Below, piece after piece: positions 13,970 to 43,642 of a DNA stretch of 64,000 nucleotides (its first letter is position 1; every line of letters starts with the position of its first letter). The notes under the pieces are model-generated. The model was not told the origin of the DNA. It ran no database searches and saw only the letters and a program-made list of their open reading frames with translations. Where the stretch lies: IMG/VR virus record IMGVR_UViG_3300010885_027635, positions 1 through 64,000 of that record. One strand, given 5' to 3'. The position numbers and the translations under genes were made by a program. Source of the stretch: a virus.

Positions 13970-14209
13970 ATGCAGAAAATAGACTTCCACTCCTTTGGTA
14001 TGGGCGATGTAGAGGATCCAGAACTCTATGCCGCACAACCGTTATATGAGTGGCAACAAACAGAAAAAGGGCAGTGGGTAATGAAGCACTGTTCAGACCC
14101 ACGATATATTGTGCGACCAGATGTCAATACCTTTGGGCATAAAATTATAGTCTACGGAGAAGTAGAAGATAAGTTAGCAACAGAATACTTACTAAAGTGG
14201 GGCAAATGA
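13970..14209 (+). CDS. small protein, Y-x-L-K-W family member
   Basis: ends EVEDKLATEYLLKWGK. Confidence 0.75.
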   Translation: MQKIDFHSFGMGDVEDPELYAAQPLYEWQQTEKGQWVMKHCSDPRYIVRPDVNTFGHKIIVYGEVEDKLATEYLLKWGK

Positions 14210-15186
14210 AAATACTTGTAACAGGAGGCTTGGGTTTTATAGGCCACAATGTTGTTGCCCTATTAGAAAGTCAAGGTCATACTTGTGTCATCACTGACAC
14301 GCAAACCACTTATGGAATTGTACCGCCGGCAGAATTAGATTATCTTGTCGCTGAACGTCGTAAAAAAATAAAAACAGATAGAATTTATAGAATTGACATC
14401 AGCGACGCTGATGGCATTGCCTGGTTAATGCGTGAACATCAACCCAATGTTGTTGTACACTTGGCCAGCTTCCCCCGACAAAAAGTAGTTAATAGAGACC
14501 CTGCCTGGGGTAGTCGTGTTATGAGTGAAGGGCTACTTAATTTGCTAGAAGCCAGCACTTGTAACCATGTACAAAAATTTGTATATGTAAGTTCCAGCAT
14601 GGTCTACGGCGATTTTAAAAACACTTACTTTGACGGTGTAACTGAAAGTCACCCAACTGATCCTTTGGGGCAATATGGTATAATGAAGTTGGCTGGAGAA
14701 TGGTTAGTACGCGACTATACTCGCAGAACCAACATGGCTCATACTATCATAAGACCAAGTGCTGTGTACGGACCACTTGATGTTGAAGATCGTGTGGTTT
14801 CAAAGTTTTTGCTGGCAGCCATGCGTGGCGATACGCTAAAAGTCAACGGTGGTGCAGAAGAATTAGATTTTACCTATGTAACTGATGCTGCCAATGGCAT
14901 TGCTCAAGCCGCTGTCAGTGATAATACCCACAACACAACCTACAACATTACCCGAGGACAATCGAGAACCTTGTTAGAAGCAGCCGAACTAGCTGTCAGC
15001 ATAGTTGGGCAAGGATCAATTGATATACAACAGCCCGACAATAACTTCCCCAGCAGAGGACAGTTAAATATGCAAAGAGCACACCTAGACTTTGGGTATA
15101 CGCCCACAGTAAACATTGAACAAGGATTTAAACTCTATTATGAATGGCTTAAAGATTCCGTTTACGGGATTAAAAAAGCAGTATAA
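14206..15186 (+). CDS. NAD-dependent epimerase/dehydratase (extended SDR)
   Basis: MKILVTGGLGFIG, SSSMVYG, YGIMK, DFTYVTD. Confidence 0.93.
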   Translation: MKILVTGGLGFIGHNVVALLESQGHTCVITDTQTTYGIVPPAELDYLVAERRKKIKTDRIYRIDISDADGIAWLMREHQPNVVVHLASFPRQKVVNRDPAWGSRVMSEGLLNLLEASTCNHVQKFVYVSSSMVYGDFKNTYFDGVTESHPTDPLGQYGIMKLAGEWLVRDYTRRTNMAHTIIRPSAVYGPLDVEDRVVSKFLLAAMRGDTLKVNGGAEELDFTYVTDAANGIAQAAVSDNTHNTTYNITRGQSRTLLEAAELAVSIVGQGSIDIQQPDNNFPSRGQLNMQRAHLDFGYTPTVNIEQGFKLYYEWLKDSVYGIKKAV

Positions 15187-16225
15187 CAATCTCCGTACAG
15201 AGATCTTAGATGCCACAGATGAAGTCCTTCGGTCTGGTCAACTCATGGCCGGCAACTATACCGCAGAGTTTGAAAATTGGTTAGCCAAACGGAATCACAG
15301 CAAGTACGCTGTAACTTGCCACTCGGGCAGTCAAGCCCTAGAAATAATTGCCGAATTCTATCGCCTACAATCTAGCACCAATCCTCCCAGGGTAGTTGTG
15401 CCCGCAATGACTTATGTGGCCACAGCAAACGCATTTATACGAGCAGGTTGGGAAGTGTATATTGCTGACACCGACTATCATGGCTTGCTAGACAAGAAAA
15501 AGATACCCAACGAACTTAGTGTACAAGCAACTGTGTTGGTTGGCTTGTATGGTGCCGCAGTCAATGCTGATCGCTTTTGGGCCACAGATCTAATTATCGA
15601 AGACGGTGCTCAACACTGGTTAAGCAACAACTGTACAAGAATTGGCAATGCTACTGCTATAAGTTTTGACCCAATGAAGAATTTAAATGCTTATGGCAAT
15701 GGTGGTGCTGTGGTAACTGATGACATAGACCTGTTGGAGTTTGCACGTGAATGGACCAATAACGGCAAACCTAAACACGCCAATATTGGTACCAACAGTA
15801 GGATGAGCGAAACAGAGTCAGCACAAATGATGGTCAAAACACGATACATTGATCAGTGGCAAGCACGTCGGAAAAATATTGCTTTGTACTGGACCAGCAG
15901 ATTAAAGAACACTGGCATTAGAAGTCTAATTGATGCTGGTAACTTTGAAACACATTGCTGTCACAAGTTTGTTATCGATGTGGACAACCGAGACATACTT
16001 GGTCGCAATCTAGAAATCAAGGGTATTGAAACTAGAGTACACTACAAGGAGCCTCTGCATGAGTTGCCTGCTTATAGTGATTACACAGGACCCGACATAC
16101 TAAGTGTAGCTAGTGCATTGAGTCGTCGTGTGTTAAGTTTACCTATCTATCCAGAACTAACTGACCTAGAAGTTGAATACATCATTGACTCGGTGTTAGA
16201 TTCCGCTTTATCAATGCGTAGCTAG
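15140..16225 (+). CDS. DegT/DnrJ/EryC1/StrS sugar aminotransferase
   Basis: SGSQAL, PAMTYVATANA, EDGAQH, SFDPMKNL-GNGG, LSLPIYPEL. Confidence 0.92.
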   Translation: MNGLKIPFTGLKKQYNNLRTEILDATDEVLRSGQLMAGNYTAEFENWLAKRNHSKYAVTCHSGSQALEIIAEFYRLQSSTNPPRVVVPAMTYVATANAFIRAGWEVYIADTDYHGLLDKKKIPNELSVQATVLVGLYGAAVNADRFWATDLIIEDGAQHWLSNNCTRIGNATAISFDPMKNLNAYGNGGAVVTDDIDLLEFAREWTNNGKPKHANIGTNSRMSETESAQMMVKTRYIDQWQARRKNIALYWTSRLKNTGIRSLIDAGNFETHCCHKFVIDVDNRDILGRNLEIKGIETRVHYKEPLHELPAYSDYTGPDILSVASALSRRVLSLPIYPELTDLEVEYIIDSVLDSALSMRS

Positions 16226-17984
16226 CCAACCAGGCCCAGTCGTAGCTCTTTCGTAGCTCGGCAAAATCTCCACCAACTGCATCATAATACTCTACAGCAT
16301 CTTCTGCTCCGTAGATACTATATTCGCCATTCTTTAATGCACCGTGATTCTTTAACCATTTATCTAGACGATACTGACTCTCGATATCTGTGTTGCCTTT
16401 GAGCTTTAAGCATTCTCGGAAAGCTGTACGCCATGCCATCCAAGGACTGTGTGCATATTCTGCTGTGCCAGATAAGATAGGAACTACTTCGTGTGCCGAG
16501 TCTAAGGTAAAGTCCAGACCTACACCGGTATTGCCCAACACCAACTTCTTGTTGTAGGCAATCATGGCCTGGTGACCATATTCTAATCCATTAATAGTAT
16601 TCTTTGCATGGAATATGTAGTGTTTAGGTTCTTGCAAGCGATCAGGTTGCCACGACCAATCAAAAGTGCCATTAACTTTAAGTTTAGCAAACACAGCAAA
16701 GAACCAAGGTGTAATGCTTAGTTTAGCAGCAGCTTGATATGCAACCACACGTCCGTTAACTCCACTACTGCGATGTATGCGATTATTATTATTTGCAGTT
16801 GTTATATTTAAAAATGCCCAATTTTGTTCTGCGTTGGGTTCACCGTTGTCAATAAACACAATATCCAATGGTTCATCCATGTACATGTGACGCTGTGTAC
16901 GATCTATGTAAGGATAATCGTATGCTTGTGTCTTTATATAAGGAATGGCTGTCTTGGGCACAATGACTGCACTGGCACCAGGACTAAGCGGCACAATGGT
17001 CTTGGTCTTTTCACGCCACAATGGAACTGTGGGTGTTTCTATAGCAGTTCCGTCTGTGCTGAACACTGCCAATGGACCAGACCAATCTTGAGTCTTAATA
17101 GCTTCTACGTGTGTATCTAGCGTATGCTCAACAACCGGCATAGGCCTACGTTTGACTCCAGGTCCTACAAAGTTTACATCATACCAATCAAGTAATTCAA
17201 ACTGAGTTATACGCTTCTTAAAACTAGGCACATGCATATAGAATGTGTCGCCAAACTTTTCTCCGCCTGATGCAAATACGTGTAGCATGGTACTCTGCCA
17301 ATGCTCTGGATGCCAACTAAAATCAAACGTGTCATAGTCGCATATACTACTTACAATCCACACATATTCTGCTTCCACTGTGTTGGCAATTCTAGTTAGC
17401 ACGTCTTTGTAGTTGTCAAAATAACGCACAGTCTTAACAGTGCCGGGCACTTGACCAGCATTGCCATCCATATGGTCTATTTCAATCACAGGTGTGACTC
17501 CGGTTTTTGCTGTGCCGCGTATTTGATCTACAAACTTTAGATCTGTACTGCCGTTATAGTACTGCGGACCGCCGGTGCGTTGATGTTGTGTGCCAAACTG
17601 ATAGGTATAAGGTGGATCGGTAGGATCCGGGTGCCAGCTAAAGTCAAAACTAGCAGGGTCAAATGCGTCAGGCACAGTCCAATTATCAACGCTGGCCAAA
17701 CAAGTTACCGCAGGATCTAGGTGATAGTTGGTTTCTGCGTAGCCTGCTTTGGGCACTAGATATGTTCCAGAGTCTTTTTGCCATTGACTAGCCCAAGCGT
17801 GTCTTTGATGGCTTTGCCAAGGGCTAGGCTCCCATAAAAAATCAAAGTCTGCGTAATCAGTTAAATAGTTTACCCACCAGAAGTATCTAGTACGCGACAA
17901 CTCTCTTGCATGTTCAATATCCTTTGCTTCCTGCTCATGCGGAAACAAATTGGGTCGTGTGCCAGAATAAAATATATCAAACAT
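16182..17984 (-). CDS. glycosyltransferase-like protein with repeated FDFSWxP modules
   Basis: four F-D-[FW]-x-W-x-P repeats; C-terminal domain similar to 39262..40176 (EPN..GVxG..AAA..AWRxxFRE.xK). Confidence 0.6.
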   Translation of the reverse strand: MFDIFYSGTRPNLFPHEQEAKDIEHARELSRTRYFWWVNYLTDYADFDFLWEPSPWQSHQRHAWASQWQKDSGTYLVPKAGYAETNYHLDPAVTCLASVDNWTVPDAFDPASFDFSWHPDPTDPPYTYQFGTQHQRTGGPQYYNGSTDLKFVDQIRGTAKTGVTPVIEIDHMDGNAGQVPGTVKTVRYFDNYKDVLTRIANTVEAEYVWIVSSICDYDTFDFSWHPEHWQSTMLHVFASGGEKFGDTFYMHVPSFKKRITQFELLDWYDVNFVGPGVKRRPMPVVEHTLDTHVEAIKTQDWSGPLAVFSTDGTAIETPTVPLWREKTKTIVPLSPGASAVIVPKTAIPYIKTQAYDYPYIDRTQRHMYMDEPLDIVFIDNGEPNAEQNWAFLNITTANNNNRIHRSSGVNGRVVAYQAAAKLSITPWFFAVFAKLKVNGTFDWSWQPDRLQEPKHYIFHAKNTINGLEYGHQAMIAYNKKLVLGNTGVGLDFTLDSAHEVVPILSGTAEYAHSPWMAWRTAFRECLKLKGNTDIESQYRLDKWLKNHGALKNGEYSIYGAEDAVEYYDAVGGDFAELRKSYDWAWLASYALIKRNLTPSQ

Positions 17985-19128
17985 GATTAGAATAGACGAA
18001 ATTTACAACAATACATTTTGGCCTTGGTTCAGAAATAATAGACCAGGAACAAGATTGTTTTTTTGTGATCCACCGGGCAATACTAGCCCAGACGCATTAT
18101 TTAACTTGGGCAATGATAACATAGTAGAAAATGATTATGTATTTTGTCACGATCAGGAGCCTGTTCATTTAGATACGTTTGAACCGTTGTTTGATGCAGT
18201 CAAAGTGCGTAACAAGGATATTGGATATAGGAAGGTGTCTAACACTGGCAATATCAGTATTGATTATGTGTACAGCTTTCCAAATCCAGCTGGACATATA
18301 ATAGTAAGTGAACAAGGCGAATATGTTGAAGAACTGTGTCGGCGTTACGGATGGACTGTACATTATTATTTCTATCATGGTTGGGCCTGTCAAGATTGGT
18401 TCCGCGGTTACGATAAAACTTTTTTGATTCCTAGAGCACGTGATCGTGCTCCTACTCGGACCTTCATGAGTCCCAATCGTATTGTGGCCGGCAAGCGTGA
18501 TCATCGTGTGTTGTTCTTGTACAATGTATTCAAAAACGATTTAGAACACAACCATATTAGTGCACCAAGAGTGTGTCAATATGAGGGTGTAGATATCACT
18601 AGTATAGCACAAAAGTATACCAATGTATACCAGGATATAACCACAGTGTTTACTCAGGCCGACTTGCCAAGACTGTTTGCGGGCGAAGATCAACAGGAAA
18701 TGCACAGTTATCAATTGGGCAACTTTACCGAGGCACAAGATAGTTTAGTGTATGTTCCCACTGAAACTGTGTACTTTGGTCGCCGACAACATCTAACCGA
18801 AAAGACATTTAAAGCTATAGCCCTGGAAATGCCGTTTGTATTAGTAGCACCTGCTGGTAGTCTGGCGTATCTACGTGAATACGGATTCCGTACATTCAGC
18901 GGCATTTTTGATGAAAGCTACGATAAAGAAACCGATGACATTCGACGAATAGAGCGGGTTACAAAACTGTTAAAAGAGTTAAATGATCTATCTGTCGCAG
19001 AACGACAAGCATTACATCGTGCATGTTTACCCGTAGTTGAACACAACTTTGAACATTTTTACGGCCAGGGATTTTCTAACATACTGTGGGACGAACTATT
19101 GAACATGCTAAAGGGACTGCATGTTTAA
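17983..19128 (+). CDS. GT10/GT-B-like protein (TEKxFK motif)
   Basis: VPTET...LTEKTFKAIALEMPFVLV...GFRTF...DESYD. Confidence 0.55.
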   Translation: MIRIDEIYNNTFWPWFRNNRPGTRLFFCDPPGNTSPDALFNLGNDNIVENDYVFCHDQEPVHLDTFEPLFDAVKVRNKDIGYRKVSNTGNISIDYVYSFPNPAGHIIVSEQGEYVEELCRRYGWTVHYYFYHGWACQDWFRGYDKTFLIPRARDRAPTRTFMSPNRIVAGKRDHRVLFLYNVFKNDLEHNHISAPRVCQYEGVDITSIAQKYTNVYQDITTVFTQADLPRLFAGEDQQEMHSYQLGNFTEAQDSLVYVPTETVYFGRRQHLTEKTFKAIALEMPFVLVAPAGSLAYLREYGFRTFSGIFDESYDKETDDIRRIERVTKLLKELNDLSVAERQALHRACLPVVEHNFEHFYGQGFSNILWDELLNMLKGLHV

Positions 19129-20317
19129 TTTTGTGTTTGATCGTTGTGTCAACGGAAAACCATATCCTAATCTTGCGCCCATGGTCGACAATCAGACTGG
19201 ACTTGGGGATTCTTATCCCTGGATAGGGCCATTGAGATTGTTGTATTTTGTACAGGATCATGCGTATCCCTACACCATTAATTACATAGATCAATCTATA
19301 CCGGACCATGCCTACTATCCTATTGGACTGGGTTATTTCAGTCACGACATTGATTACTTTTCATTAATGTCTACTCAAGTGATTGATTTGCTACGTACAC
19401 AACAATTAACAGTATTATTTTATTATCACGAAGGTGATGGGCCGCATCATCAAAAACGTAGATTAGATCAACTGTGTATGACTCATCAATTGCCTGCAGA
19501 CTGTTATCAATTTGTCAGCGGCAATACTATGGCTCGGCAGTTGGATGGATTTGTTTACTTTCCAGATCATGAATTGTTTTACTGGCGTAACAGTGTAGTA
19601 AAAGACGGACAGGCAATGCCAGGATGCGATCCGCATCAGCGTACACGTACTCGTCAATTCACAGCACTCAGTAGAATACACAAATGGTGGCGAGCTACTG
19701 CAATGGCTCGGTTACACCAACTTAAACTATTGGACTCTAGCTATTGGAGTTATAACACTATCACCATGAGCGACGACGCCAGTACTGGACCGTTGAGATT
19801 CAACCCTATACAAATTTGGCCATTTAAGAATCTTGAATCAGACATGGAACAATTTGTTGCTGGTGCACCATACAGTTGCGATACACTGAACAGCGACAGT
19901 CATAATCAACACTGGCAGTATGTGCCAGAACATTATGAAAATGCCTACTGTAATCTTGTGTTAGAAACATTCTTTGATGCTGATGCAACCAATTGTACAT
20001 TCATAAGTGAAAAAACATTCAAGCCCATTAGACACGGGCAACCGTTTGTGATATTTGGCACTCCCAATACATTAACTACGCTAAAAGAGCTGGGCTATCG
20101 TACCTTTGATCATGCTGTAGATAACAGTTATGATCAACATTGTGACAATACTGAACGATTTAAACGTGTGGTTGCGGCTGTGGATCAACTTGCCCGTCTG
20201 GATTTGCATGCGTGGTACCAGTCATGCTGGGATGATGTTGTACACAACCAACAGTTATTCTTGGCACCAAAGTATGACCGCTTAAATAGCTTGTACCTCA
20301 ACCTAACATCAAAATGA
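19121..20317 (+). CDS. GT10/GT-B-like protein (SEKTFKP motif)
   Basis: LVLET...ISEKTFKPIRHGQPFVIFG...GYRTF..DNSYD. Confidence 0.55.
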   Translation: MFNFVFDRCVNGKPYPNLAPMVDNQTGLGDSYPWIGPLRLLYFVQDHAYPYTINYIDQSIPDHAYYPIGLGYFSHDIDYFSLMSTQVIDLLRTQQLTVLFYYHEGDGPHHQKRRLDQLCMTHQLPADCYQFVSGNTMARQLDGFVYFPDHELFYWRNSVVKDGQAMPGCDPHQRTRTRQFTALSRIHKWWRATAMARLHQLKLLDSSYWSYNTITMSDDASTGPLRFNPIQIWPFKNLESDMEQFVAGAPYSCDTLNSDSHNQHWQYVPEHYENAYCNLVLETFFDADATNCTFISEKTFKPIRHGQPFVIFGTPNTLTTLKELGYRTFDHAVDNSYDQHCDNTERFKRVVAAVDQLARLDLHAWYQSCWDDVVHNQQLFLAPKYDRLNSLYLNLTSK

Positions 20318-35031: not shown

Positions 35032-35043
35032 GAAATGTGCAAG

Positions 35044-35065
35044 TAAATATTTATAACTGTAAATA
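35044..35065. promoter_or_regulatory. divergent late-promoter-like motifs
   Basis: TATAAATA on minus (35048-35055) and TAAATA on plus (35044, 35060) in a 38-nt gap. Confidence 0.5.
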
Positions 35066-35069
35066 CTAC

Positions 35070-35663
35070 ATGTTTGAAATAGTTCAAGATTTTGAAAAAG
35101 CCATTGCTGAGTTTTATGGAGCACCTTACGCGGTAGCTACAGACTGCTGTACCCATGCCATTGAGCTGAGTTTACGATATCAAAACATAAAATCTGCTAC
35201 ATGCCCTAGCCAAACATATCTATCAATTCCATTTACCCTAATGAAATTGAATTTAGAATGGAGTTTTGTTGATCAGCCCTGGCAAGATTATTATTATTTG
35301 GGTGGTACCAACATTGTTGATGCAGCAGTATACTGGAAAAAAGACGGCTATATTCCGAGAAGCTATATGTGTTTAAGTTTTCAATTTCGCAAACATTTAA
35401 ATTTAATCAGAGGTGGTGCAATACTGTTAGATGATCCTGTAGCCGCTGCTCAATTGCGTCGAATGACCACCGATGGTAGGGACGTCAGCCGACTGTGGAA
35501 AGAGCAAGATATTGACACTGTTGGTTATCATTACTACATGCCTATTGAAACTGCAAAATTAGGATTGGCAAAGTTGCCAGGTGCTATTGCTCAACCAGCC
35601 AGACAGTGGACCAGTGACGAGTATCCCAGATTACCCACATTAACGGTGTTTAAGAATGTCTAA
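35070..35663 (+). CDS. miniature DegT-family aminotransferase-like protein
   Basis: FEKAIAEFYGAPYAVATDCCTHAIEL, DAA, SFQFRKHL..GGAIL; only 197 aa. Confidence 0.75.
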   Translation: MFEIVQDFEKAIAEFYGAPYAVATDCCTHAIELSLRYQNIKSATCPSQTYLSIPFTLMKLNLEWSFVDQPWQDYYYLGGTNIVDAAVYWKKDGYIPRSYMCLSFQFRKHLNLIRGGAILLDDPVAAAQLRRMTTDGRDVSRLWKEQDIDTVGYHYYMPIETAKLGLAKLPGAIAQPARQWTSDEYPRLPTLTVFKNV

Positions 35664-36582
35664 AATATTTAATTCAAAATATCCCATACTTGAAGCTTGT
35701 ATGAACAAAGGTTCCAGTTTAGAGTTGGCTGTTGCTGTGCACCAAGCTGGTGGATATCCTAGTTTTTGTAGCTGGACTTATAATCGTCGCTTTGATCTTA
35801 TGCAAAAAGAAATAGATCAATTTGTTGCTACAACAGGATCAAACTGCGTACATCTTAGCTTTGAGCTGGACGAATTACCAAATTTTGATATTTGCCATCG
35901 CATAGTAAAATCACATGACATTCCCACCATTGAAATTATTTACGGTGCCAGCGATTCTTATCGTGGGATCAAAAGTCGTTATACTGATATTGATCAAGCT
36001 GTACAAGACTGGGTAGGCCCTTTACACGAACACGGTACTCGAGTATTTAAAAGATTATACGAGCCCATCGATGCTGATACCATGAAGAAAAATTTTATTG
36101 ACGGCTTCTGTATCAAAGGCTTAGAATCTGCAGGGTTTGGTGGATATACTCCGGTCCGAGATTTATTTTTAAAACAAAAAGAACTCACTCCAACTGCTAT
36201 GCTGATTCCGTATGGTGGAGTCAGTACCAGTGCCCAAGTTAAAGATTATATAGACCTAGGTGCAGAAATAATAGCAGTTGGTACGGTACTAGCGTTGAGT
36301 GCAGAAAGTACAATTAAATTAGAAACCAAGCTGGCAGCAATCAAAGCCACTAGTAAAGACCTGGTTGAGTTTAAACACAACACCAGAAAACAAACTGCCT
36401 TGGAGTTCGAGCCATACACTGGACACGACGACTATAATCGTACCAAAGGATTGGTCAACGGTATGTGGAAAAAGAACAGCAACCAAGGGCATGTGTATTT
36501 TGGACACGGAATTGACCATGTCACTGAACTACTCACTTGTCAACAGATTATTCAAAATCTAACTGCGGATCTGTCGAGCTAA
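35656..36582 (+). CDS. nitronate monooxygenase/FabK-like FMN TIM-barrel protein
   Basis: PILEACM..LAVAVHQAGG, GLESAG, PYGGV..LGAEIIAVGT...ES. Confidence 0.7.
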   Translation: MSKIFNSKYPILEACMNKGSSLELAVAVHQAGGYPSFCSWTYNRRFDLMQKEIDQFVATTGSNCVHLSFELDELPNFDICHRIVKSHDIPTIEIIYGASDSYRGIKSRYTDIDQAVQDWVGPLHEHGTRVFKRLYEPIDADTMKKNFIDGFCIKGLESAGFGGYTPVRDLFLKQKELTPTAMLIPYGGVSTSAQVKDYIDLGAEIIAVGTVLALSAESTIKLETKLAAIKATSKDLVEFKHNTRKQTALEFEPYTGHDDYNRTKGLVNGMWKKNSNQGHVYFGHGIDHVTELLTCQQIIQNLTADLSS

Positions 36583-37260
36583 CAATTCTGCATAAGCCTG
36601 ATGCCCTTGGGCAGTTGGGTACTTGTTATCATCCCCCATTAACTCGTTGTTGTTTCTACTGGCAATTTGCATCAAGGTATCCTCTTGATAAAACTGAGAC
36701 CAATCTATTAACTTATACAAATGTTCAAATCGTTTAAACTTGGTATAAGGCCTGCCATATAAAAACAAATAAGGTTGATTGGTTGATTTAAAAAACCCTT
36801 GTAGGCCAATCATTTTAAGAATGTCAGATTCAAGCGTTTGCTCGTAAGTCACTGCTTGGTGATACTGTTTAAAAAACTTAGCTACACTGTCTTGTTTATT
36901 AGATCTGTAACCTGAATTCATAATCCAGTTTTTAGGAACATAGTCTTGATCGTTAACTGGGTAAACAATTTTTTCAGGCCAATCGTTTACGCCGCTTTGA
37001 TACAAGGAAGTATTTTCAGAATCAGCAAACATGCTGATATCAGTGACTGGCAAACCAGTATGTGTTGATTCGCACCACATAATTAATACTAAATCATATG
37101 ATCTTTTGGCCAATTCTGAAATTGTGGCTTCGTATATGTAGGCATTGCCAGATCCGGCTAGGCTTAAATTAACTAATTCACAATCAAGAATATCTTTAAG
37201 ATAATAAGGCCAACTTCCGGGGCCTCTTGAGTTGCAGTTGCCGGTTAATAAAATATTCAT
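36559..37260 (-). CDS. SGNH/GDSL-like protein, apparently degenerate
   Basis: SWPYYL..VNLSLAGSGN..DLVLIMW..PTAQGHQAYAELL. Confidence 0.55.
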   Translation of the reverse strand: MNILLTGNCNSRGPGSWPYYLKDILDCELVNLSLAGSGNAYIYEATISELAKRSYDLVLIMWCESTHTGLPVTDISMFADSENTSLYQSGVNDWPEKIVYPVNDQDYVPKNWIMNSGYRSNKQDSVAKFFKQYHQAVTYEQTLESDILKMIGLQGFFKSTNQPYLFLYGRPYTKFKRFEHLYKLIDWSQFYQEDTLMQIASRNNNELMGDDNKYPTAQGHQAYAELLARQIRS

Positions 37261-38339
37261 TGATAGTTTTCATCCATCCAGGTCCTCGACACTTTACCTG
37301 GATATTTCAATGGCAATGTATCTACTTGTTTAAGCAAACGTGGTCGGCAATGTTGATTGATGCTGACTAGAAAGTTCTGTACTTCTTGTGGATTGCACTC
37401 GCCAACGTACAAACATTTAACATAGCTTTTTCCAAATATTGCACATTCTTGCATGTTGGGAAAATGTTCTGCTAATTGTCGTTCTATGCTGATGGGATTT
37501 ATTTTGTAACCGTTTACATTGATTTGATCTACATGACGTCCTAGTATACGATAATATCCTGCTGAATCTTGTTCAGCTAAATCTCCGGTATCAAACCAGT
37601 CGTTTACACATACAGTAGGACCTTTTATCAATAAATGATTGTTATCAATTTTGGCTTCAATGCCATCTGGCAATCCCACTGTGCCCATGCGTTGTTCTCC
37701 GTGCAAAGGGTTGGTAAAGCAATGACTTATAGCTTCGGTCATGCCAAACGCTTCAATTACTGGCACTTCAAACTTGGATCGAAGATGTTGATACAATGCA
37801 TCTGGCAGTGCGGCGCTGGCAGCACGTATAAATCTCAAACTATCAAGTTCCATTTGCCCAACAACTTTTAAAATGGCAGGAACTGCTGTGATTAATGTTG
37901 GACTAAATTTAGGTAATTGTCTAAGTTCTGGAACTGATAAAAAATTCATTTCGCACCCGGCTCTAAGTGCAGCCCAATAAAATGCTTGACCGTGTGCATG
38001 AGCCAAACTCATTACACTGACATATCGATCGTTGGCTGTCAACTCGTAACTATCGCACATGGTCTTAGTCAACATGTTCAACTGATCTTGCGAATATCCA
38101 TAAAACTTACTATCGCCTGTGGTGCCAGACGTGTACATGAATATGCGTTCGTTTTTATAGTTGCCGCCATCTCTATAATGCTCGCCGTCTGCGGTAATTA
38201 ATAAACTGTAGTCGGATTTTTCTAATAGATATTGTTTTCGTGCATCAGTGACTGCGGGCTCCACAATCATAATACTGTACTCATCAAGATTCTTTATGTA
38301 ATCTTGCGGATTAGAAACACAAAGTACTGCTCGCTTCAT
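37257..38339 (-). CDS. AMP-binding acyl-CoA synthetase-like enzyme (short N-terminus)
   Basis: YTSGTTGDSK, FGMTE, FDTGDL, GR..DQINVNG, GKV. Confidence 0.9.
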   Translation of the reverse strand: MKRAVLCVSNPQDYIKNLDEYSIMIVEPAVTDARKQYLLEKSDYSLLITADGEHYRDGGNYKNERIFMYTSGTTGDSKFYGYSQDQLNMLTKTMCDSYELTANDRYVSVMSLAHAHGQAFYWAALRAGCEMNFLSVPELRQLPKFSPTLITAVPAILKVVGQMELDSLRFIRAASAALPDALYQHLRSKFEVPVIEAFGMTEAISHCFTNPLHGEQRMGTVGLPDGIEAKIDNNHLLIKGPTVCVNDWFDTGDLAEQDSAGYYRILGRHVDQINVNGYKINPISIERQLAEHFPNMQECAIFGKSYVKCLYVGECNPQEVQNFLVSINQHCRPRLLKQVDTLPLKYPGKVSRTWMDENYQ

Positions 38340-39268
38340 CAGTTACTCCGGGATTGATTAATTTCGTTACGATATTTGTTGCGAAGGTATCGTATGCTTG
38401 CAATTCTTTTATTGTAAAAGTCCGTTACTGTGACATTGTCAAATACTGAACTACGCATGTCACTTAGTTGTTGTATTTCGGCTAGCCCAACACTTTTTGT
38501 AGCTTGGTCTAATATTTTTCCAATGCTGACTCTTTTTTCTTCTAACATTGCCTGATTGGACATGACAATATTAAACACCGACGGCACATCAATGCCCTGC
38601 TCCTTGAGTGTTTTTAACTTTGGGTCCGCTGAATATCTTGTAGGGCAACTCATTGCAATGGCTTTCATTTTGGGATTTAATTTTTCAAATTGTTTCACCA
38701 CAGATATGCGTTCAATTCCAAAATTTATACCATTATTGCCGGCCATATTTACTACTGCATCGTAGTTTGATTTGAACACAATCAAACGACTAGAAAGTCC
38801 ATACTTTTCAGCAATGGACATGGCTGTAAGATGTGTCACATTGCCAAACCCGACGGTACCTATTGTTATTTCTCCTGTGCCTTTCATGCTTGATAGATCG
38901 CCTGGGCGTGTGGCTGTTGAAGAAATCACTGCCCAGCATGCATCACCAATACTGTGAACTGGGCGATAATCCTCTTCTTTGATTGTACCAGCTTCCAGAT
39001 TGTCCACAAAAGCTGCATGAATAATTGCTAACCGAGACTGTGGATGCTCATTCATTGTAGTCAATGCAATTACACCTTGTGCTCCTGGTTTAAGTTCCAT
39101 TACAAATACGTATTTTTTTTGTTGAACATTGGCACGTTCTAATACCTTTTGAAATGCTACATTGCCGCCATGTCCAGCACTGTACGGGGAGTATACCGTG
39201 ATGACTTCTTGTGCCATTGCTGGCAATGCTAAAAATAATAACGCTAAAAATTTAAACACAATTACCAT
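38339..39268 (-). CDS. divergent Bug/TctC periplasmic binding protein
   Basis: signal peptide, VYSPYSAG, KPGAQGVIA, G.G.VTHL, KTLKEQGID. Confidence 0.75.
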   Translation of the reverse strand: MVIVFKFLALLFLALPAMAQEVITVYSPYSAGHGGNVAFQKVLERANVQQKKYVFVMELKPGAQGVIALTTMNEHPQSRLAIIHAAFVDNLEAGTIKEEDYRPVHSIGDACWAVISSTATRPGDLSSMKGTGEITIGTVGFGNVTHLTAMSIAEKYGLSSRLIVFKSNYDAVVNMAGNNGINFGIERISVVKQFEKLNPKMKAIAMSCPTRYSADPKLKTLKEQGIDVPSVFNIVMSNQAMLEEKRVSIGKILDQATKSVGLAEIQQLSDMRSSVFDNVTVTDFYNKRIASIRYLRNKYRNEINQSRSN

Positions 39269-40176
39269 CCTTCCTGCTGTCTAATTACGTCAATCTCTCG
39301 GACCATAACACCCAGGTTGTGCCAGTTACTTCTATAATGATGTTTAAAGAATTTGCTTTCTTGTTCGTCAAGTCTGTTGATTGGCAAGTCTAACTGTGTA
39401 ACTAAATCCTCGGCTACTCGTCCGGCTAGCAGTTCTGGATCACCAGACTCAACTGTTTGCCATAGATCTTCGAGTGCGGCAAAGTCTTGTACTAATCGAT
39501 AATCCCAATCAGTCAGCATGGTCATGTAGGTGCCCATACGACTGCCAGCTATAGCCCAAATACCGTGCTCCACATCTCTGCCCACATTGTGCCAGACAGT
39601 TAAATGATCTAGATTGCGTTGATGTACACGGTGTTGAAAGTCAGTTAATGTAGGACGGGCACCTTTGTTCAGGCACATCTTGACACCTTCACGAAATCCG
39701 GCACGCCAGGCCTGGAAGGCGGTGGCATTAGGGTATGTTGTACTATAACAATCGTGCATGGCATAGTAGTTGGGATAGAAACAAAACTCTACATCGTTTT
39801 CTGCTGACCCATCTGTGGCTTCGTGTGTACGCATGGCATAGATAAATTCTTTAGACCATACGCTTAGGCCACCATTGCCGTACATGAGTCCGTTGACGTG
39901 ATTTTTGGCACGCCAGCGATAAGCACATACTTCGTCAACTTCCAAGGTCAGATTAAAGAACTTAGGGTCCGGGATATTATCTCCGTCAATAAGCACAAAG
40001 CGATCAGTGCCACTTGCATCTGCGGCTGCTTTGTGTGCGGCATCTGATCCCTTGACTCCGTCAACACGTACTGCCCATGGCACCATGTTTTTAATCTTAA
40101 CCCATGTTTCTTCCTTGTTGGGTTCATCGTAGGTCAGATAAACACAATCTAAGTCTGCTATATCAATTTGTTTCAT
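39262..40176 (-). CDS. GT-A-like glycosyltransferase
   Basis: YLTYDEPN, GVKGSDAAHKAAA, IDGDN (DxD), YGNGG, AWRAGFREGVK. Confidence 0.65.
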   Translation of the reverse strand: MKQIDIADLDCVYLTYDEPNKEETWVKIKNMVPWAVRVDGVKGSDAAHKAAADASGTDRFVLIDGDNIPDPKFFNLTLEVDEVCAYRWRAKNHVNGLMYGNGGLSVWSKEFIYAMRTHEATDGSAENDVEFCFYPNYYAMHDCYSTTYPNATAFQAWRAGFREGVKMCLNKGARPTLTDFQHRVHQRNLDHLTVWHNVGRDVEHGIWAIAGSRMGTYMTMLTDWDYRLVQDFAALEDLWQTVESGDPELLAGRVAEDLVTQLDLPINRLDEQESKFFKHHYRSNWHNLGVMVREIDVIRQQEGW

Positions 40177-40516
40177 TGGTCTCTAAATTCCATTTGATGT
40201 GCGGTTGATCGTCAGCTACAACAATACAAACATCCTTAGGATTGCAACAAATACCATCAACGGTGCTGGGCACTAGTTTTGTTACTGTTTGTGGCGGAAC
40301 AATTTGAATAATTTTACCATCAACAACGCAAATGTTTGTGGCTTGTATTTGAAATGTTACTGGATCAACTTCGATATATTTACCGGGACGATCCTCGTGA
40401 CTGTATTCTATTGGTCGTCCTTGGTCATCGTAGTACAAACGAAATAGTACTGTTGGCGGAGTCCACGGTTCTAAATTATTAAAAATTTCCAAAAAGTTTT
40501 GTGTGGTTTCATTCAT
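40163..40516 (-). CDS. hypothetical protein (FRLYYDDQG)
   Basis: coupled ORF in GT operon. Confidence 0.7.
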   Translation of the reverse strand: MNETTQNFLEIFNNLEPWTPPTVLFRLYYDDQGRPIEYSHEDRPGKYIEVDPVTFQIQATNICVVDGKIIQIVPPQTVTKLVPSTVDGICCNPKDVCIVVADDQPHIKWNLETNETN

Positions 40517-40793
40517 CGTTGCTTTTTTGATTGTTACGTTTTTCTTGGATCGTCAGTTTGTCTTCGCCTTTGCGGGCTCGATTATGTCTGGGATTACCGC
40601 AGAGTGTACAATGAGCTTGGCCACAATCCATGGCATGATGTTTGGCCAATCTATGCGGTTGTGCTTCATCAATACGTTTTGACGCTTCACCAAAGTTCTT
40701 GTGAGCTTTAATAATGTTAAGCTGTTTTTTGATTGCCCGCCACGCACGATGCATACGTGTATTGTGTTTAGTTTTATCTTGATCGTTGCTCAT
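40509..40793 (-). CDS. small basic Zn-binding protein
   Basis: CGQAHCTLCGNPR; likely start MSNDQD 40793. Confidence 0.7.
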   Translation of the reverse strand: MSNDQDKTKHNTRMHRAWRAIKKQLNIIKAHKNFGEASKRIDEAQPHRLAKHHAMDCGQAHCTLCGNPRHNRARKGEDKLTIQEKRNNQKSNDE

Positions 40794-41521
40794 TATATCC
40801 TCCAATTTTTAACGTGATAGTGTACAAAGCCTGTCTGTGCTATTGTGTTTATCCTTAATCCAGGATTGGTGTTTTCCCAGACTAATTCTTTAGTCCAATC
40901 GTTGGTACGAGTGGGCACGATATGTCGTTTCATGTGAACAATCAGAGGTCCAATACCCACAGGCAACGTAACTGTTTCTGGACCCATAATCTGTGCGGCC
41001 ATGGCATACACCACATCAGTTGTTGCCTGTTCGTCTGGAAATTTCAACAAGGTTTTATATTGGTCCCAATGTTCAAAAATTTGTTTTACCAATTGAAAAA
41101 ACTCTTGTGCTGTTTTACTCACACGCCAATAGGTTATAGCATTATATACGTCAGGCAAGTTGTTTGCGTCAAATAATTTACGATAGTATCTTGATTGCCC
41201 GGTATTACCATAAAAATCTCTGCAACCTTGGCTTATAACCACGTCACGCTTTTCTAACAGTGTCCACCAATGATCAATTGGGCCAGTAGCAATCATGTCT
41301 GCTTCCAATTTGATAGTTTGTCTGTAAGGGCTGGTGGCAAAACATTGCCAGTCATTGGCGTAACCTACAAGATCACCATGTGGCAACATTTCTCTTGTGA
41401 GAATAGTTATGTTGGCTTCTGGATGCCATTGACGTATACTGTCGGCTAGTTGTTCGGCACAAGCCACATACACATTGCCAATGGCTGGAATCAAGTAACC
41501 ACGTTCAGCTGTTATTGGCAA
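40793..41521 (-). CDS. GT-A/GT8-like glycosyltransferase
   Basis: YVACAEQLADSI, SPYRQTIKLEADM, TTDVVYA, HMK. Confidence 0.6.
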   Translation of the reverse strand: MPITAERGYLIPAIGNVYVACAEQLADSIRQWHPEANITILTREMLPHGDLVGYANDWQCFATSPYRQTIKLEADMIATGPIDHWWTLLEKRDVVISQGCRDFYGNTGQSRYYRKLFDANNLPDVYNAITYWRVSKTAQEFFQLVKQIFEHWDQYKTLLKFPDEQATTDVVYAMAAQIMGPETVTLPVGIGPLIVHMKRHIVPTRTNDWTKELVWENTNPGLRINTIAQTGFVHYHVKNWRI

Positions 41522-42260
41522 CGATGGCTCCTAGTTGTTGTTTGCCCATGGCATGAAAGTCTTGTCGCAATTCAATCCAACGTGGCTTATTATCTGCGGT
41601 TAAAAAGTCCACACGATAACGATCCGAGTCTAACTGTGTTAACCGATGGTCTAGAGTTAAACTGGCCAACGACCAAGGAATATCTGTAGTTTGTAGCGTG
41701 TGACCGTTTTCAATGTTTAGTGCTATACTGAGTGCATGATCGTTACGATATGTTGTTCTTGTATTGGCGTATAAATTTCTATAGTGTGTCCAGTTGTTGC
41801 GGATCATGGCCATTGACTCAAATATGGCCTGTGCTTTTTTGCTTCGACGAAATACCATAACTGTGGCCCACCACATGGGCATGTGATAGTTTCCAAAATA
41901 ATTTAAGTCTTCAAATGTTTGTAATCCTGTAACATCATATGCCCAACGATGGCATAAAAAATCTTGACGGCTGTCTAATAACACTTGTAACTGATTGCTA
42001 GCCACCACATAGTCTGCATCCAATACTAAGGTCTGATCAAATGGTGACGCTTGATACACATCCATGCGATTTAGATTGTGCCATGTTACTGAACCCACAT
42101 CTGTAAAATGTCTTGTGTTGGTGCTGGGTGCGGTATCGTCAGTTATTATGTGTGTTGGTATGCCAAGATGACGCTCAATGTTACGGGCTGACCAGTGAGC
42201 CATGGCCTCATAGTCGATCTGTTCATTGTTGCGAGCAAAAATTACAGCACCGGTGGTCAT
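41505..42260 (-). CDS. GT-A/GT8-like glycosyltransferase
   Basis: GAVIFA..IDY, SPFDQTLVLDADY (DxD), RNDHALSIA, HAMGK. Confidence 0.65.
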   Translation of the reverse strand: MTTGAVIFARNNEQIDYEAMAHWSARNIERHLGIPTHIITDDTAPSTNTRHFTDVGSVTWHNLNRMDVYQASPFDQTLVLDADYVVASNQLQVLLDSRQDFLCHRWAYDVTGLQTFEDLNYFGNYHMPMWWATVMVFRRSKKAQAIFESMAMIRNNWTHYRNLYANTRTTYRNDHALSIALNIENGHTLQTTDIPWSLASLTLDHRLTQLDSDRYRVDFLTADNKPRWIELRQDFHAMGKQQLGAIVANNS

Positions 42261-42562
42261 CTGTTTTGATTAAGTTCTTCGTATTCTACTAGCCAGGCTG
42301 TCATTTGTTCTTGCCAGTGACTGCGTACTTGATCTCGAAACTCGCGAGTTTGTACTCGGATTGGCGTTTCATACAGGTCAAGTAACACTGAATCAGGGCT
42401 GGTACAAGCGGCTAATACAGCCAATAACTCCGGACCTGCTGACCACATTCCACCACTGTGGGCAAATGTTAATTTGGCTTGGTATTTTTCTTTAAGCAGG
42501 CGTTTGTTTGCGGTATGCTCAAAACGAGCACGACCATGAGAGATTAATTGATCTGGATTCAT
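42257..42562 (-). CDS. hypothetical phage protein
   Basis: 101 aa ORF below promoter, ATGA coupled to GT. Confidence 0.7.
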   Translation of the reverse strand: MNPDQLISHGRARFEHTANKRLLKEKYQAKLTFAHSGGMWSAGPELLAVLAACTSPDSVLLDLYETPIRVQTREFRDQVRSHWQEQMTAWLVEYEELNQNR

Positions 42563-43630: not shown

Positions 43631-43642
43631 TGTTGTTTCCTA

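What the first reader, a model, noticed from the sequence alone, without database searches (positions are those of the whole stretch)
14206..42562. ~28-kb phage-encoded tailoring cluster with aminoglycoside-like enzyme logic next to the tail genes
Seen: epimerase, two DegT aminotransferases, amidinotransferase, carbamoyltransferase, six radical SAM enzymes, four GT10-like and four GT-A-like proteins, two sulfotransferase-like proteins and an acyl-CoA ligase, mostly translationally coupled. Established: oxidation, PLP transamination, amidination (StrB1), O-carbamoylation (TobZ) and radical SAM/twitch dehydrogenation (BtrN) are steps used to decorate amino-sugars in aminoglycoside pathways. Inference: the phage builds a heavily modified guanidino/carbamoyl/sulfo glycan. 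The likeliest use is to coat the virion, given the adjacency to tail fibres and the late-type promoters; alternatives are remodelling the host surface, hypermodifying DNA or making a diffusible compound. A pathway of this size in a phage is, to my knowledge, uncharacterised.
Basis: partly seen in the sequence, partly recalled or inferred. Interest (0 to 1): 0.8.

Follow-up and report, generated by a model that had tools for sequence, protein, structure and literature searches.

The report
Radical-SAM sugar-tailoring island in jumbo phage
A giant lake phage carries, right behind its tail-fibre genes, a 28-kb block of soluble sugar-transferring and sugar-decorating enzymes, including six unstudied iron-sulfur "radical SAM" enzymes; it most likely builds an unusual, strain-variable sugar coat on phage proteins, but the product and its target are unknown.

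Summary
The gene content is largely real. Confirmed: NDP-sugar epimerase/dehydratase, a full DegT aminotransferase plus a 208-aa DegT remnant, a NodU/TobZ-type carbamoyltransferase, an AGAT/StrB1-family amidinotransferase, six radical SAM genes, four GT-B glycosyltransferase paralogues and an acyl-AMP ligase. The four "GT-A-like" proteins are weak leads. One sulfotransferase call is sub-threshold and the other is unsupported.

The window belongs to an uncultured freshwater jumbo myovirus. At least 207 IMG/VR contigs share a syntenic backbone. It runs from the fibre genes through GT-like genes, five twitch-first radical SAMs (NCBIfam NF033640), a cyclophilin-like unknown and the carbamoyltransferase to the amidinotransferase and GT-B genes. 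Variable slots between them hold sugar-nucleotide enzymes.

Cultured Ralstonia phage RsoM2USA has a minimal version inside its tail module. Five complete relatives lack ThyA-like, TGT, cyclitol-synthase and polyprenyl-phosphate priming genes. This weakens the DNA-modification, aminoglycoside and classical surface-polysaccharide readings.

Best reading: a cytoplasmic glycan-building and tailoring island, about 0.8. That it decorates virion fibres is about 0.45 and rests on context only.

This scan found the same system before on other phage genomes. My literature searches found no description of it.

The parts
14197..15186 (+). NDP-sugar short-chain dehydrogenase (epimerase / 4,6-dehydratase type); variable gene
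   Evidence: Pfam Epimerase 2e-42. Nearest NCBIfam is dTDP-glucose 4,6-dehydratase at 122 bits, below its equivalog cut-off. PDB hit to UDP-glucose 4-epimerase at 9e-27. Found in only 3-10 of 80 related loci.
15116..16225 (+). DegT-family PLP sugar aminotransferase; variable gene
   Evidence: Pfam DegT 7e-56. Best solved relatives are glutamine-scyllo-inositol transaminase, QdtB, DesV-type and WbpE.
16182..17984 (-). 600-aa protein. The C-terminal 230 aa are a paralogue of 39262 (GT2-like lead). The N-terminus has repeated FDFSWHP-like motifs.
   Evidence: blastp to 39262 at 3e-5; no Pfam or NCBIfam hit; sequence.
17983..20317 (+). Two GT-B fold glycosyltransferase paralogues (17983-19128 and 19121-20317)
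   Evidence: Paralogy. The AF2 model of 19121 has pLDDT 93. VIA Z scores: 12.1 to T4 beta-glucosyltransferase, 11.8 to H. pylori alpha1,3-FucT, 11.2 to EXT1/2.
20314..21348 (+). Amidinotransferase (AGAT/StrB1/SxtG/HsvA family); backbone gene
   Evidence: Profile A3 against PDB hit AGAT at 1e-25 and StrB1 at 7e-18. The Cys and His that align with the AGAT active site are invariant. 63-80% identical in 47 related loci.
21345..22820 (-). NodU/CmcH/TobZ-type carbamoyltransferase; backbone gene
   Evidence: Carbam_trans_N 1e-37 and Carbam_trans_C 3e-48. Present in 71 of 80 loci. 44% identical to RsoM2USA_199.
22915..24006 (-). Backbone protein of unknown function: a cyclophilin-like barrel with an inserted four-helix bundle
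   Evidence: AF2 pLDDT 84. Best VIA Z is 8.9 or less, with cyclophilins at 7-8. Foldseek found nothing. No sequence family.
23930..27682 (-). Three radical SAM genes (23930, 25216, 26459). 23930 and 26459 are backbone genes; 25216 is divergent and variable.
   Evidence: NF033640 scores are 285, 102 and 344 bits. In each, a four/five-Cys N-terminal domain precedes the CX3CX2C motif.
27679..28323 (-).
   Evidence: No hit in Pfam, NCBIfam or PDB.
28317..30894 (-). Two backbone twitch-first radical SAM genes (28317 and 29557)
   Evidence: NF033640 scores of 379 and 297 bits. 28317 has at least 207 IMG/VR relatives; the 80 best kept are 73-98% identical. 29557 is 54% identical to RsoM2USA_202.
30887..31498 (-). 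Possible Stf0-like sulfotransferase; variable gene
   Evidence: Pfam Stf0 E 4e-4, 20.5 bits, below the cut-off of 22. PDB Stf0 at E 1.2.
31495..32676 (-). GT-B glycosyltransferase paralogue; backbone position between radical SAM genes
32633..34048 (-). Backbone twitch-first radical SAM (same subtype as 29557)
   Evidence: NF033640 score of 306 bits. 35% identical to RsoM2USA_349.
34045..35031 (-). GT-B glycosyltransferase paralogue. It is the first gene of the minus-strand operon, and its likely true start is the ATG at 35031.
   Evidence: Paralogy. TATAAATA at 35048-35055 lies 17 nt upstream of that ATG.
35037..36582 (+). Short DegT-like protein (208 aa or less) and an NMO/FabK-like flavin oxidoreductase; variable genes
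   Evidence: Pfam DegT 5e-16 and NMO 3e-11. The lysine motif is kept. Present in 0-5 of 80 loci.
36559..39268 (-). Variable three-gene cassette: a DUF6071/SGNH-like protein (36559), an acyl-AMP ligase (37257), and a TctC-like protein with a signal-like N-terminus (38339)
   Evidence: The same cassette is present in L035. There are three DUF6071 genes beside the radical SAM/carbamoyltransferase pair of RsoM2USA.
39262..40176 (-). Backbone protein, probably a GT-A (GT2-like) glycosyltransferase
   Evidence: Atlas neighbours are named 'GT2-like' (score 0.99), and the nearest cluster with a Pfam family carries PF00535 (score 0.87). Pfam Glyco_tranf_2_3 at E 0.06. 36% identical to RsoM2USA_350.
40163..40805 (-). 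Two small proteins (117 and 98 aa) of unknown function; 40163 is a backbone gene
40793..42260 (-). Two paralogous backbone proteins, possibly GT8-like GT-A
   Evidence: All ten PDB hits of profile A5 are glycogenin, at E 0.3-1.4, and the best-hit alignment covers the profile's ...dAD motif. hhalign to the phage K566 GT8 proteins was not significant. Homologues in RsoM2USA_353 and _352.
42257..42562 (-). 101-aa backbone protein of unknown function, first gene of this operon. It is preceded by a terminator-like hairpin and TAGTATAAT.
   Evidence: Homologue in RsoM2USA_354.
42635..44911 (-). Context: a Ser/Thr-rich (29%) fibre-like protein and a tail fibre with a C-terminal intramolecular-chaperone domain. 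These are candidate acceptors.
   Evidence: PHROG tail-fibre families; Peptidase_G2 IMC domain; composition; ATAAATA at 44933 and 44958.

Best explanation
This is a cytoplasmic glycan-assembly and glycan-tailoring island of a freshwater jumbo myovirus lineage. Host nucleotide sugars are remodelled by the variable SDR and DegT enzymes. At least four GT-B enzymes, and probably four GT-A-like enzymes, transfer the sugars onto an acceptor. The sugars are then decorated by O-carbamoylation (NodU/TobZ type), amidination of an amino group (AGAT/StrB1 type) and acylation (AMP-ligase cassette). A series of C-H-activating steps follows, carried out by five to six twitch-first radical SAM enzymes; by analogy with BtrN, NeoN and BlsE these could be oxidation, epimerisation, deoxygenation or C-C chemistry. 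The most likely acceptor is a phage structural protein of the adjacent fibre module, so that the virion carries a strain-variable glycan. Shown here: enzyme family identities, the conserved backbone, the variable slots, solubility, and the position next to fibre genes. Inferred: order of steps, chemistry of the radical SAM enzymes, the acceptor, and the biological role. I put 'glycan island' at about 0.8 and 'acceptor is a virion protein' at about 0.45.
For: The enzyme families are established. The syntenic backbone recurs in the 80 related IMG/VR loci examined, taken from at least 207 relatives of radical SAM 28317. The variable slots of relatives hold sugar-nucleotide tools: 5 GDP-mannose-dehydratase/epimerase clusters, FkbM and other methyltransferases, a hexapeptide acyltransferase, DegT and a GHMP kinase, plus 12 further radical SAM clusters. 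The same radical SAM family sits with two Pfam-significant GT8 genes and a GT4-like gene in Vibrio phage K566. It also sits beside carbamoyltransferase, epimerase, GT1, DegT, sulfotransferase and AMP-binding genes in some bacterial loci. No transmembrane segments occur except in one variable gene. Five 95-100% complete relatives have no polyprenyl-phosphate priming transferase, no ThyA-like or TGT genes and no cyclitol synthases. The island follows fibre genes here and in relatives. In cultured RsoM2USA the homologous block _354-_348 directly follows genes whose products were found in virions (_361, sheath _359, _356) (PMC8504454). The depleted motif ATAAATA (6 seen, 19 expected) occurs only just upstream of genes: the baseplate gene, the fibre gene and the GT-B/radical SAM operon at 35031. 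A homologous amidinotransferase was detected in purified virions of cyanophage S-SCSM2R (PMC12801897).
Against: No acceptor or product is shown. Adjacency to fibre genes is only context. The operon starting at 42562 has a sigma70-like promoter behind a terminator rather than a late motif. In relatives, ATAAATA precedes the homologue of 34045 (the first gene of the radical SAM operon here) in only one locus; the other motifs near genes precede the fibre gene or unassigned genes. The GT-A assignments are weak. Soluble GTs can also act on lipid-linked LPS core or on DNA, and T4 DNA glucosyltransferases tie for best fold match. Twitch radical SAMs also act on peptides, as the papers listed show. 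The RNA evidence is only short exact contigs in one lake metatranscriptome and could be DNA carry-over.
Confidence: 0.5

Rival explanations
1. Host envelope remodelling. The soluble glycosyltransferases and tailoring enzymes act on the host's nascent LPS core, or on another lipid-linked glycan, at the inner face of the membrane. This changes the cell surface during infection, for example to block superinfection or stop progeny from re-adsorbing.
For: GT8- and GT4-type enzymes are typical LPS-core enzymes (established knowledge), and LPS-core GTs are peripheral or soluble. The sigma70-like promoter at 42569 suggests that part of the island is not late. One variable gene (38339) has a signal-like N-terminus and a TctC-like fold, so it may be periplasmic.
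Against: The island holds no membrane protein, flippase, ligase or priming transferase, and five complete relatives have no priming transferase either. The island is embedded in the tail module in two distant phages. A late-type promoter stands on the radical SAM/GT-B operon.
Confidence: 0.15
2. A free small molecule. The island makes a diffusible or intracellular, aminoglycoside-like or otherwise glycosidic compound carrying guanidino and carbamoyl groups, used against the host or against competitors.
For: Each tailoring enzyme has an aminoglycoside counterpart: StrB1, TobZ, BtrN, NeoN and the DegT enzymes. The closest solved DegT relative is a glutamine-scyllo-inositol transaminase at 1e-42. 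The amidinotransferase profile hits StrB1, SxtG and HsvA, all small-molecule enzymes. All enzymes are soluble.
Against: Five complete relatives have no DOIS/DHQS-like and no inositol-1-phosphate synthase. No exporter or self-resistance gene was seen. About eight GT-like genes is far more than known pseudo-oligosaccharide pathways use. DegT and the epimerase are variable, not backbone.
Confidence: 0.12
3. DNA hypermodification. The GT-B enzymes glycosylate a modified base in phage DNA, and the other enzymes tailor that sugar to evade restriction or CRISPR.
For: T4 beta- and alpha-glucosyltransferases are among the best structural matches (Z 12.1 and 10.8). Large phages often hypermodify their DNA (established knowledge). 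All enzymes are soluble.
Against: Five complete relatives have no thymidylate-synthase-like hydroxymethylase and no TGT/DpdA-like base-exchange enzyme. The fold match ties with GT10 and GT47 enzymes. The island sits in the tail module.
Confidence: 0.08
4. Protein maturation by the radical SAM enzymes. The twitch-first radical SAMs modify the fibre polypeptides themselves (epimerisation, cross-links), and the glycosyltransferases act separately.
For: Weak NCBIfam side hits go to peptide maturases, especially for 25216 and 7871. Twitch and SPASM enzymes include peptide epimerases and cross-linkers (reviews listed). Ser/Thr-rich fibre genes are adjacent.
Against: The radical SAM genes are interleaved with GT genes here, in K566 and in relatives. 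Neighbours of the bacterial members are sugar and tailoring enzymes, and no peptide-maturation families appear among the 25 listed. No precursor-like small peptide genes or RRE domains were detected.
Confidence: 0.1

Closest known systems
NCBIfam NF033640, N_Twi_rSAM ('twitch domain-containing radical SAM protein')
   Same: Five of the six island radical SAMs, plus 7871 outside the island, score 224-379 bits over the full-length model (cut-off 170). The Cys-rich auxiliary domain precedes the CX3CX2C core.
   Different: The family is only catalogued, and I found no paper on any member. 25216 is below the cut-off. Here the family is expanded to 5-7 anciently diverged paralogues in one island (20-30% identity between them).
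Virus-encoded virion glycosylation: mycobacteriophage capsid/tail glycosylation (Freeman et al. 2023, PMC10527164, cited in PMC12801897), and the chlorovirus and mimivirus glycan gene clusters (from my own knowledge)
   Same: Glycosyltransferase and sugar-nucleotide genes are encoded by the virus, are placed in or next to structural genes, act in the cytoplasm, and are independent of the host's lipid-carrier pathway.
   Different: This island is much larger (about 29 genes). It has a radical SAM array, an amidinotransferase and a carbamoyltransferase, none of which I know from those systems. A glycan on the virion has not been shown here.
Aminoglycoside tailoring enzymes (StrB1 amidinotransferase, TobZ carbamoyltransferase, and the BtrN/NeoN/BlsE twitch radical SAMs)
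   Same: The same enzyme superfamilies occur, and the same types of decoration of amino-sugars are plausible.
   Different: There is no cyclitol-forming enzyme, exporter or resistance gene. The twitch domain is N-terminal, not C-terminal. There are many more glycosyltransferases.
Ralstonia phage RsoM2USA genes _354-_348 and _203-_199 (all annotated as hypothetical proteins; PMC8504454)
   Same: These are homologues of 42257, 41505, 40793, 39262 (twice), radical SAMs 32633 and 29557, and the carbamoyltransferase. The first block directly follows virion-protein genes.
   Different: It is a minimal version: two radical SAMs, with no amidinotransferase or GT-B array detected in the loci I read, and it is split over two places in the genome.

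Membership tests
NF033640 N_Twi_rSAM | Full-length match above the curated cut-off (170 bits) | tested here: met
   23930 scores 285, 26459 scores 344, 28317 scores 379, 29557 scores 297 and 32633 scores 306 bits. 25216 scores only 102 and is not a member by this test.
NF033640 N_Twi_rSAM | Auxiliary Cys-rich (twitch/SPASM-like) domain N-terminal to the CX3CX2C radical SAM core | tested here: met
   Pfam SPASM hits lie at about residues 7-95 and Radical_SAM at about 120-340. Four to five Cys residues precede the CX3CX2C motif in all six.
Amidinotransferase (AGAT/StrB1, guanidino-group-modifying superfamily) | Full-length homology, with conservation of the Cys and His that align with the AGAT active site (triad identity from my own knowledge) | tested here: met
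   Profile A3 hits AGAT at 1e-25 over three stretches spanning the protein, and StrB1 at 7e-18. C329 and H190 are invariant and align with the GGxxHCxTCDVRRRG Cys and the NPHID His of AGAT. The Asp equivalent is not resolved. Single-sequence Pfam and NCBIfam found nothing.
NodU/CmcH/TobZ carbamoyltransferase | Both Carbam_trans_N (Kae1-like) and Carbam_trans_C (YrdC-like) domains above the Pfam cut-offs | tested here: met
   130 and 164 bits, against cut-offs of 24 and 27. The NodU equivalog cut-off is not reached (139 against 1000), so the substrate is not assigned.
GT10 alpha1,3/4-fucosyltransferase | GT-B fold plus the GT10 sequence family and C-terminal motif | tested here: inconclusive
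   The fold is met: Z 11.8 to H. pylori FucT, and 10.2-10.9 to FUT9, FUT11 and FUT13. It ties with T4 BGT at 12.1 and EXT at 11.2. There is no Pfam Glyco_transf_10 hit and no PDB sequence hit. A conserved ...TEK... block (E297 and K298 invariant) resembles the GT10 motif only as I recall it.
GT8 (GT-A) glycosyltransferase | Significant match to Glyco_transf_8 with a DxD motif | tested here: inconclusive
   All ten PDB hits of the 40793/41505 profile are glycogenin, but at E 0.3-1.4. There is no Pfam hit. hhalign to the K566 GT8 proteins was not significant.
Aminoglycoside biosynthetic pathway | A cyclitol-forming enzyme (2-deoxy-scyllo-inosose synthase or inositol-1-phosphate synthase) | tested here: not met
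   No PF01761 or PF01658 match in five 95-100% complete relatives, and none in the window's island.
Phage DNA base hypermodification / glucosylation | An entry enzyme: a ThyA-like pyrimidine hydroxymethylase or a TGT/DpdA-like base exchanger | tested here: not met
   No PF00303 or PF01702 match in five complete relatives. Other routes were not tested.
Lipid-carrier-dependent surface polysaccharide locus (O-antigen/capsule type) | An initiating phosphoglycosyltransferase and membrane flippase or polymerase | tested here: not met
   No PF02397 or PF00953 match in five complete relatives. No multi-pass membrane protein in the island. Wzx and Wzy families were not searched separately.
Virus-encoded virion glycosylation system | A glycan demonstrated on a virion protein and dependent on the viral GT genes | not testable with these tools
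   Only context is available: GT genes inside or next to the fibre and tail module here and in RsoM2USA.

The most novel reading that the evidence does not exclude
The twitch-first radical SAM enzymes form a new class of glycan-editing enzymes. They perform several successive radical C-H activations on a protein-linked oligosaccharide. Together with amidino, carbamoyl and acyl transfer, they give jumbo-phage fibres a chemically unprecedented glycan coat that is swappable between strains and that tunes adsorption or protects the virion. This would be the first radical-SAM-dependent virion glycosylation pathway.
Probability: 0.35. Interest if true: 0.85.

Novelty: new variant of a known kind. 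Interest (0 to 1): 0.7.

Why it matters
Virus-encoded glycosylation is known from a few systems, but none that I know of uses radical SAM chemistry, amidination or carbamoylation.

This island is a conserved feature of an abundant freshwater phage lineage. At least 207 IMG/VR contigs carry it. A metagenome protein search returned about 7,000 relatives each for the radical SAM family and for one GT-like family, out of the 8,000 candidates scored per search.

The radical SAM family involved (NF033640) has no characterised member. It also occurs in Bacteroidota, Bdellovibrionota and other bacteria next to similar tailoring genes.

Two cultured phages make the question directly testable: Ralstonia phage RsoM2USA and Vibrio phage K566/K567, both of which carry reduced versions.

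If the product sits on the fibres, it would bear on host recognition, on virion stability and on how phages diversify their surface without changing their proteins.

Tried and rejected
- **Nucleotide search:** megablast of 24 kb of the island against 50,697 phage records gave no match.
- **Sequence families:** Pfam and NCBIfam at permissive E-values gave nothing for 16182, the GT-B paralogues, 22915, 27679 and 39262.
- **PDB profile searches:** the GT-B family, 22915 and the 39262 family gave only chance-level hits.
- **22915:** the ESM Atlas gave nothing, Foldseek gave nothing, and VIA gave only middling cyclophilin-like matches. tblastn against cultured phages gave no match.
- **hhalign:** the 39262 family against the 40793 family showed no relation. 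The 40793 family against the K566 GT8 proteins was not significant.
- **Metagenome protein searches:** the two searches were swamped by close phage homologues without names, so they gave no functional lead.
- **Genome-collection scan:** the first scan failed because the alignment was too diverse, and relatives cannot be drawn for a virus record. A narrower alignment worked.
- **Sulfotransferase checks:** PDB searches of 30887 and 27679 found nothing usable.
- **T4 late consensus:** TATAAATA as a whole is not enriched (2 seen, 4.6 expected). Only the placement of the depleted 7-mer ATAAATA is informative.
- **Sigma70 and terminator scans:** the number of sites found did not exceed the shuffles.
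- **RNA evidence:** it is limited to short contigs in one run and could be DNA carry-over. Parts without cover say nothing.
- **Literature:** the searches found no paper on this island or on NF033640. The RsoM2USA paper does not discuss these genes.

Full report
**What the window is.** The window is the first 64 kb of a 91.7-kb IMG/VR virus contig. Its baseplate wedge gene (60428-63883, minus strand) matches PHROG baseplate families. It is 32-35% identical to the baseplate wedge of the 345-380-kb jumbo myoviruses of the 121Q / K64-1 / CBB group and to Vibrio phage 2.275.O. Beside it lie a 4,901-aa protein with FG-GAP and CBM5/12 traces, a tail fibre with a C-terminal intramolecular-chaperone domain (43643-44911), and a 29% Ser/Thr fibre-like protein (42635-43630). 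The DNA occurs in several freshwater metagenomes.

**Checking the gene list.** Single-sequence Pfam and NCBIfam searches confirm the following:
- the NDP-sugar SDR at 14197;
- the DegT aminotransferase at 15116, whose closest solved relatives are a scyllo-inositol transaminase, the 3-aminotransferases QdtB and WbpE, and a DesV-type transaminase;
- the two-domain carbamoyltransferase at 21345;
- six radical SAM genes;
- an AMP-binding ligase at 37257;
- an NMO/FabK-like oxidoreductase at 35656.

The amidinotransferase at 20314 was invisible to Pfam. A profile built from 23 orthologues hit human AGAT at 1e-25, and also SxtG, HsvA and StrB1, across the whole length. The Cys and His that align with the AGAT active site are invariant.

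The four paralogues 17983, 19121, 31495 and 34045 gave no sequence hit. A confident AF2 model (pLDDT 93) is a GT-B glycosyltransferase. Its best matches are T4 beta-glucosyltransferase (Z 12.1), H. pylori alpha1,3-fucosyltransferase (11.8), EXT1/2 (11.2) and plant and human FUTs. So 'GT10-like' is fair at fold level but not proven.

The weaker items are these:
- The 'GT-A-like' proteins rest on leads only. For 40793 and 41505, all ten PDB hits are glycogenin, at E 0.3-1.4. For 39262 and the C-terminus of 16182, there are Atlas neighbours named GT2-like and a Pfam hit at E 0.06.
- One sulfotransferase call is sub-threshold (30887) and the other (27679) has no support.
- The second DegT is a 208-aa remnant that keeps the lysine motif.
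- 22915, a backbone gene, is a cyclophilin-like barrel with a helical insert and no informative relative.

**The radical SAM genes.** All six have four to five cysteines in a domain that precedes the CX3CX2C motif. Following a lead from earlier notes of this scan, I tested NCBIfam NF033640 ('twitch domain-containing radical SAM protein'). Five of the six score 285-379 bits against a cut-off of 170. The copy at 7871 outside the island scores 224. 25216 scores only 102. The paralogues are only 20-30% identical to each other, so the array is old.

**Backbone and variable genes.** Radical SAM 28317 has at least 207 relatives in IMG/VR. The 80 best kept are 73-98% identical, and many lie on 340-353-kb contigs. 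Across those 80 loci a syntenic backbone recurs:
- fibre gene, 42635, 42257, 41505, 40793, 40163, 39262;
- a variable slot;
- radical SAM 32633, GT-B 31495, radical SAMs 29557, 28317 and 26459;
- a variable slot;
- radical SAM 23930, 22915, the carbamoyltransferase;
- a variable slot;
- the amidinotransferase, two GT-B genes, 16182.

The epimerase, both DegT genes, 25216, 27679, 30887, the NMO gene and the ligase cassette are each found in few loci.

I clustered 250 slot genes of the relatives into 84 groups and scanned one representative of each. The result was 12 further radical SAM groups, 5 GDP-mannose-dehydratase/epimerase groups, 3 DUF6071 and 2 AMP-binding groups. There was also an FkbM-type methyltransferase, further hits to generic methyltransferase families, a hexapeptide acyltransferase, a DegT, a GHMP kinase, a flavin halogenase and a homing endonuclease. 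These are the tools of sugar-nucleotide and glycan tailoring, and this is the strongest argument that the substrate is carbohydrate.

**Independent occurrences.**
- Cultured Vibrio phage K566 has four radical SAMs of this kind interleaved with two Pfam-significant GT8 genes and a GT4-like gene.
- Cultured Ralstonia phage RsoM2USA has homologues of 42257, 41505, 40793, 39262 (twice) and radical SAM 32633 as genes _354 to _348. They directly follow the giant protein _361, the sheath _359 and _356, which its authors detected in virions (PMC8504454).
- Elsewhere in RsoM2USA, a 54%-identical copy of radical SAM 29557 lies with three DUF6071 genes and a 44%-identical carbamoyltransferase.
- A scan of one genome per prokaryotic species found members at 33-44% identity in Bacteroidota, Bdellovibrionota, Elusimicrobiota, Acidobacteriota and others, often in multiple copies.
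- I took 96 neighbouring genes at 13 loci that lie on long contigs of isolates or MAGs. Among them were 13 further radical SAMs, 4 PhyH dioxygenases, 2 carbamoyltransferases, 2 epimerases, 2 GT1 genes, and one each of DegT, sulfotransferase and AMP-binding. The counts are small, but the toolkit is the same and no peptide-maturation families appear in the list.

**Which acceptor?** Only one island protein has a hydrophobic segment with a clear transmembrane-like score, the signal-like N-terminus of the variable gene 38339; the GT-B protein 17983 scores just at the threshold. Five 95-100% complete relatives lack:
- ThyA-like hydroxymethylases and TGT, which argues against the usual DNA hypermodification routes;
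- DHQS/DOIS-like and inositol-1-phosphate synthases, which argues against a cyclitol aminoglycoside;
- sugar nucleotidyltransferases, so host NDP-sugars must be used;
- both families of polyprenyl-phosphate priming transferases, which argues against a classical surface polysaccharide.

What remains is a soluble system acting on a protein, on a lipid-linked host glycan, on DNA by an unknown route, or on a small molecule. Position favours a virion protein, because the island is tied to the fibre genes in relatives and in RsoM2USA.

The 7-mer ATAAATA is the core of the T4 late promoter as I know it. It is depleted in the window (6 copies, 19 expected) and about ten-fold depleted in 1.57 Mb of related loci. 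All six copies lie just upstream of gene starts: five of them 0-47 nt upstream, the sixth 85 nt before the start at 963. The genes include the baseplate gene, the fibre gene and the ATG at 35031 that opens the GT-B/radical SAM operon. However, the operon from 42562 has a terminator-like hairpin and TAGTATAAT instead. In relatives the motif mostly precedes the fibre gene.

A 29%-identical amidinotransferase of cyanophage S-SCSM2R was reported in its purified virion proteome (PMC12801897). Short exact contigs from a lake metatranscriptome lie on six island genes, which is only a weak hint of expression.

**Verdict.** The interpretation as a glycan-tailoring island is well supported. The virion target is the best guess, but it is unproven. 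The aminoglycoside comparison holds for single enzymes only.

Virus-encoded glycosylation islands are a known kind. This one is a new variant because of its radical SAM array, amidino and carbamoyl chemistry, size and modular variability. The scan had already met it on other phage genomes. I found no published description.

Noticed in passing
complete relatives G001-G005 (records behind L042, L044, L058, L063, L080): Each 342-353-kb genome has 14-19 matches to the Radical_SAM family spread over the whole genome, an unusually high number for a phage.
   Followed up: partly
window 872, 5434, 35048, 44933, 44958, 63902: ATAAATA is strongly depleted: 6 copies against 19 expected in the window, and 54 copies in 1.57 Mb of related loci. 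All six window copies lie just upstream of co-oriented gene starts, so it behaves like a T4-type late-promoter core.
   Followed up: partly
window 5721 and 42569; also 10948: A second promoter-like motif, (G)TAGTATAAT, precedes the MoxR gene and the 42562 operon, and a one-mismatch copy precedes the VWA gene. It may mark a different temporal class.
   Followed up: no
window 7871-9385 (+): A seventh twitch-first radical SAM (NF033640, 224 bits) with a 120-aa N-terminal extension lies outside the island, between a MoxR ATPase and a metallopeptidase-VWA gene.
   Followed up: no
proteins P0001-P0033: Metagenomes hold proteins of about 800-850 aa that are two twitch-first radical SAM units fused in tandem.
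   Followed up: no
L102, L103 (Haliscomenobacter MAG), L104 (Legionellales MAG), L105 (Rickettsiales MAG): These 'bacterial MAG' contigs carry all or much of the phage island, with L102 and L105 also holding the tail-fibre gene, so they are phage contigs binned into MAGs.
   Followed up: partly
one variable-slot gene among the representatives of A9: A flavin-dependent tryptophan-halogenase-like gene (E 5e-91) sits in a variable slot of a relative's island. That is an odd tool for a glycan pathway.
   Followed up: no
window 16182-17984 (-): The N-terminal 370 aa of this 600-aa protein contain four spaced FDF(S/L)W(H/E/Q)P-like motifs of unknown meaning, ahead of the 39262-like domain.
   Followed up: no
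window 45723-60428 (-): A 4,901-aa protein next to the baseplate gene has only faint FG-GAP and CBM5/12 matches. A short stretch resembles the giant virion protein RsoM2USA_361.
   Followed up: no
whole contig: Apart from one short hit to the giant protein and a generic epimerase match, RsoM2USA is the only cultured phage found to share the island's GT-like backbone genes, and it infects a betaproteobacterium. Together these hint at a freshwater Burkholderiales host.
   Followed up: no
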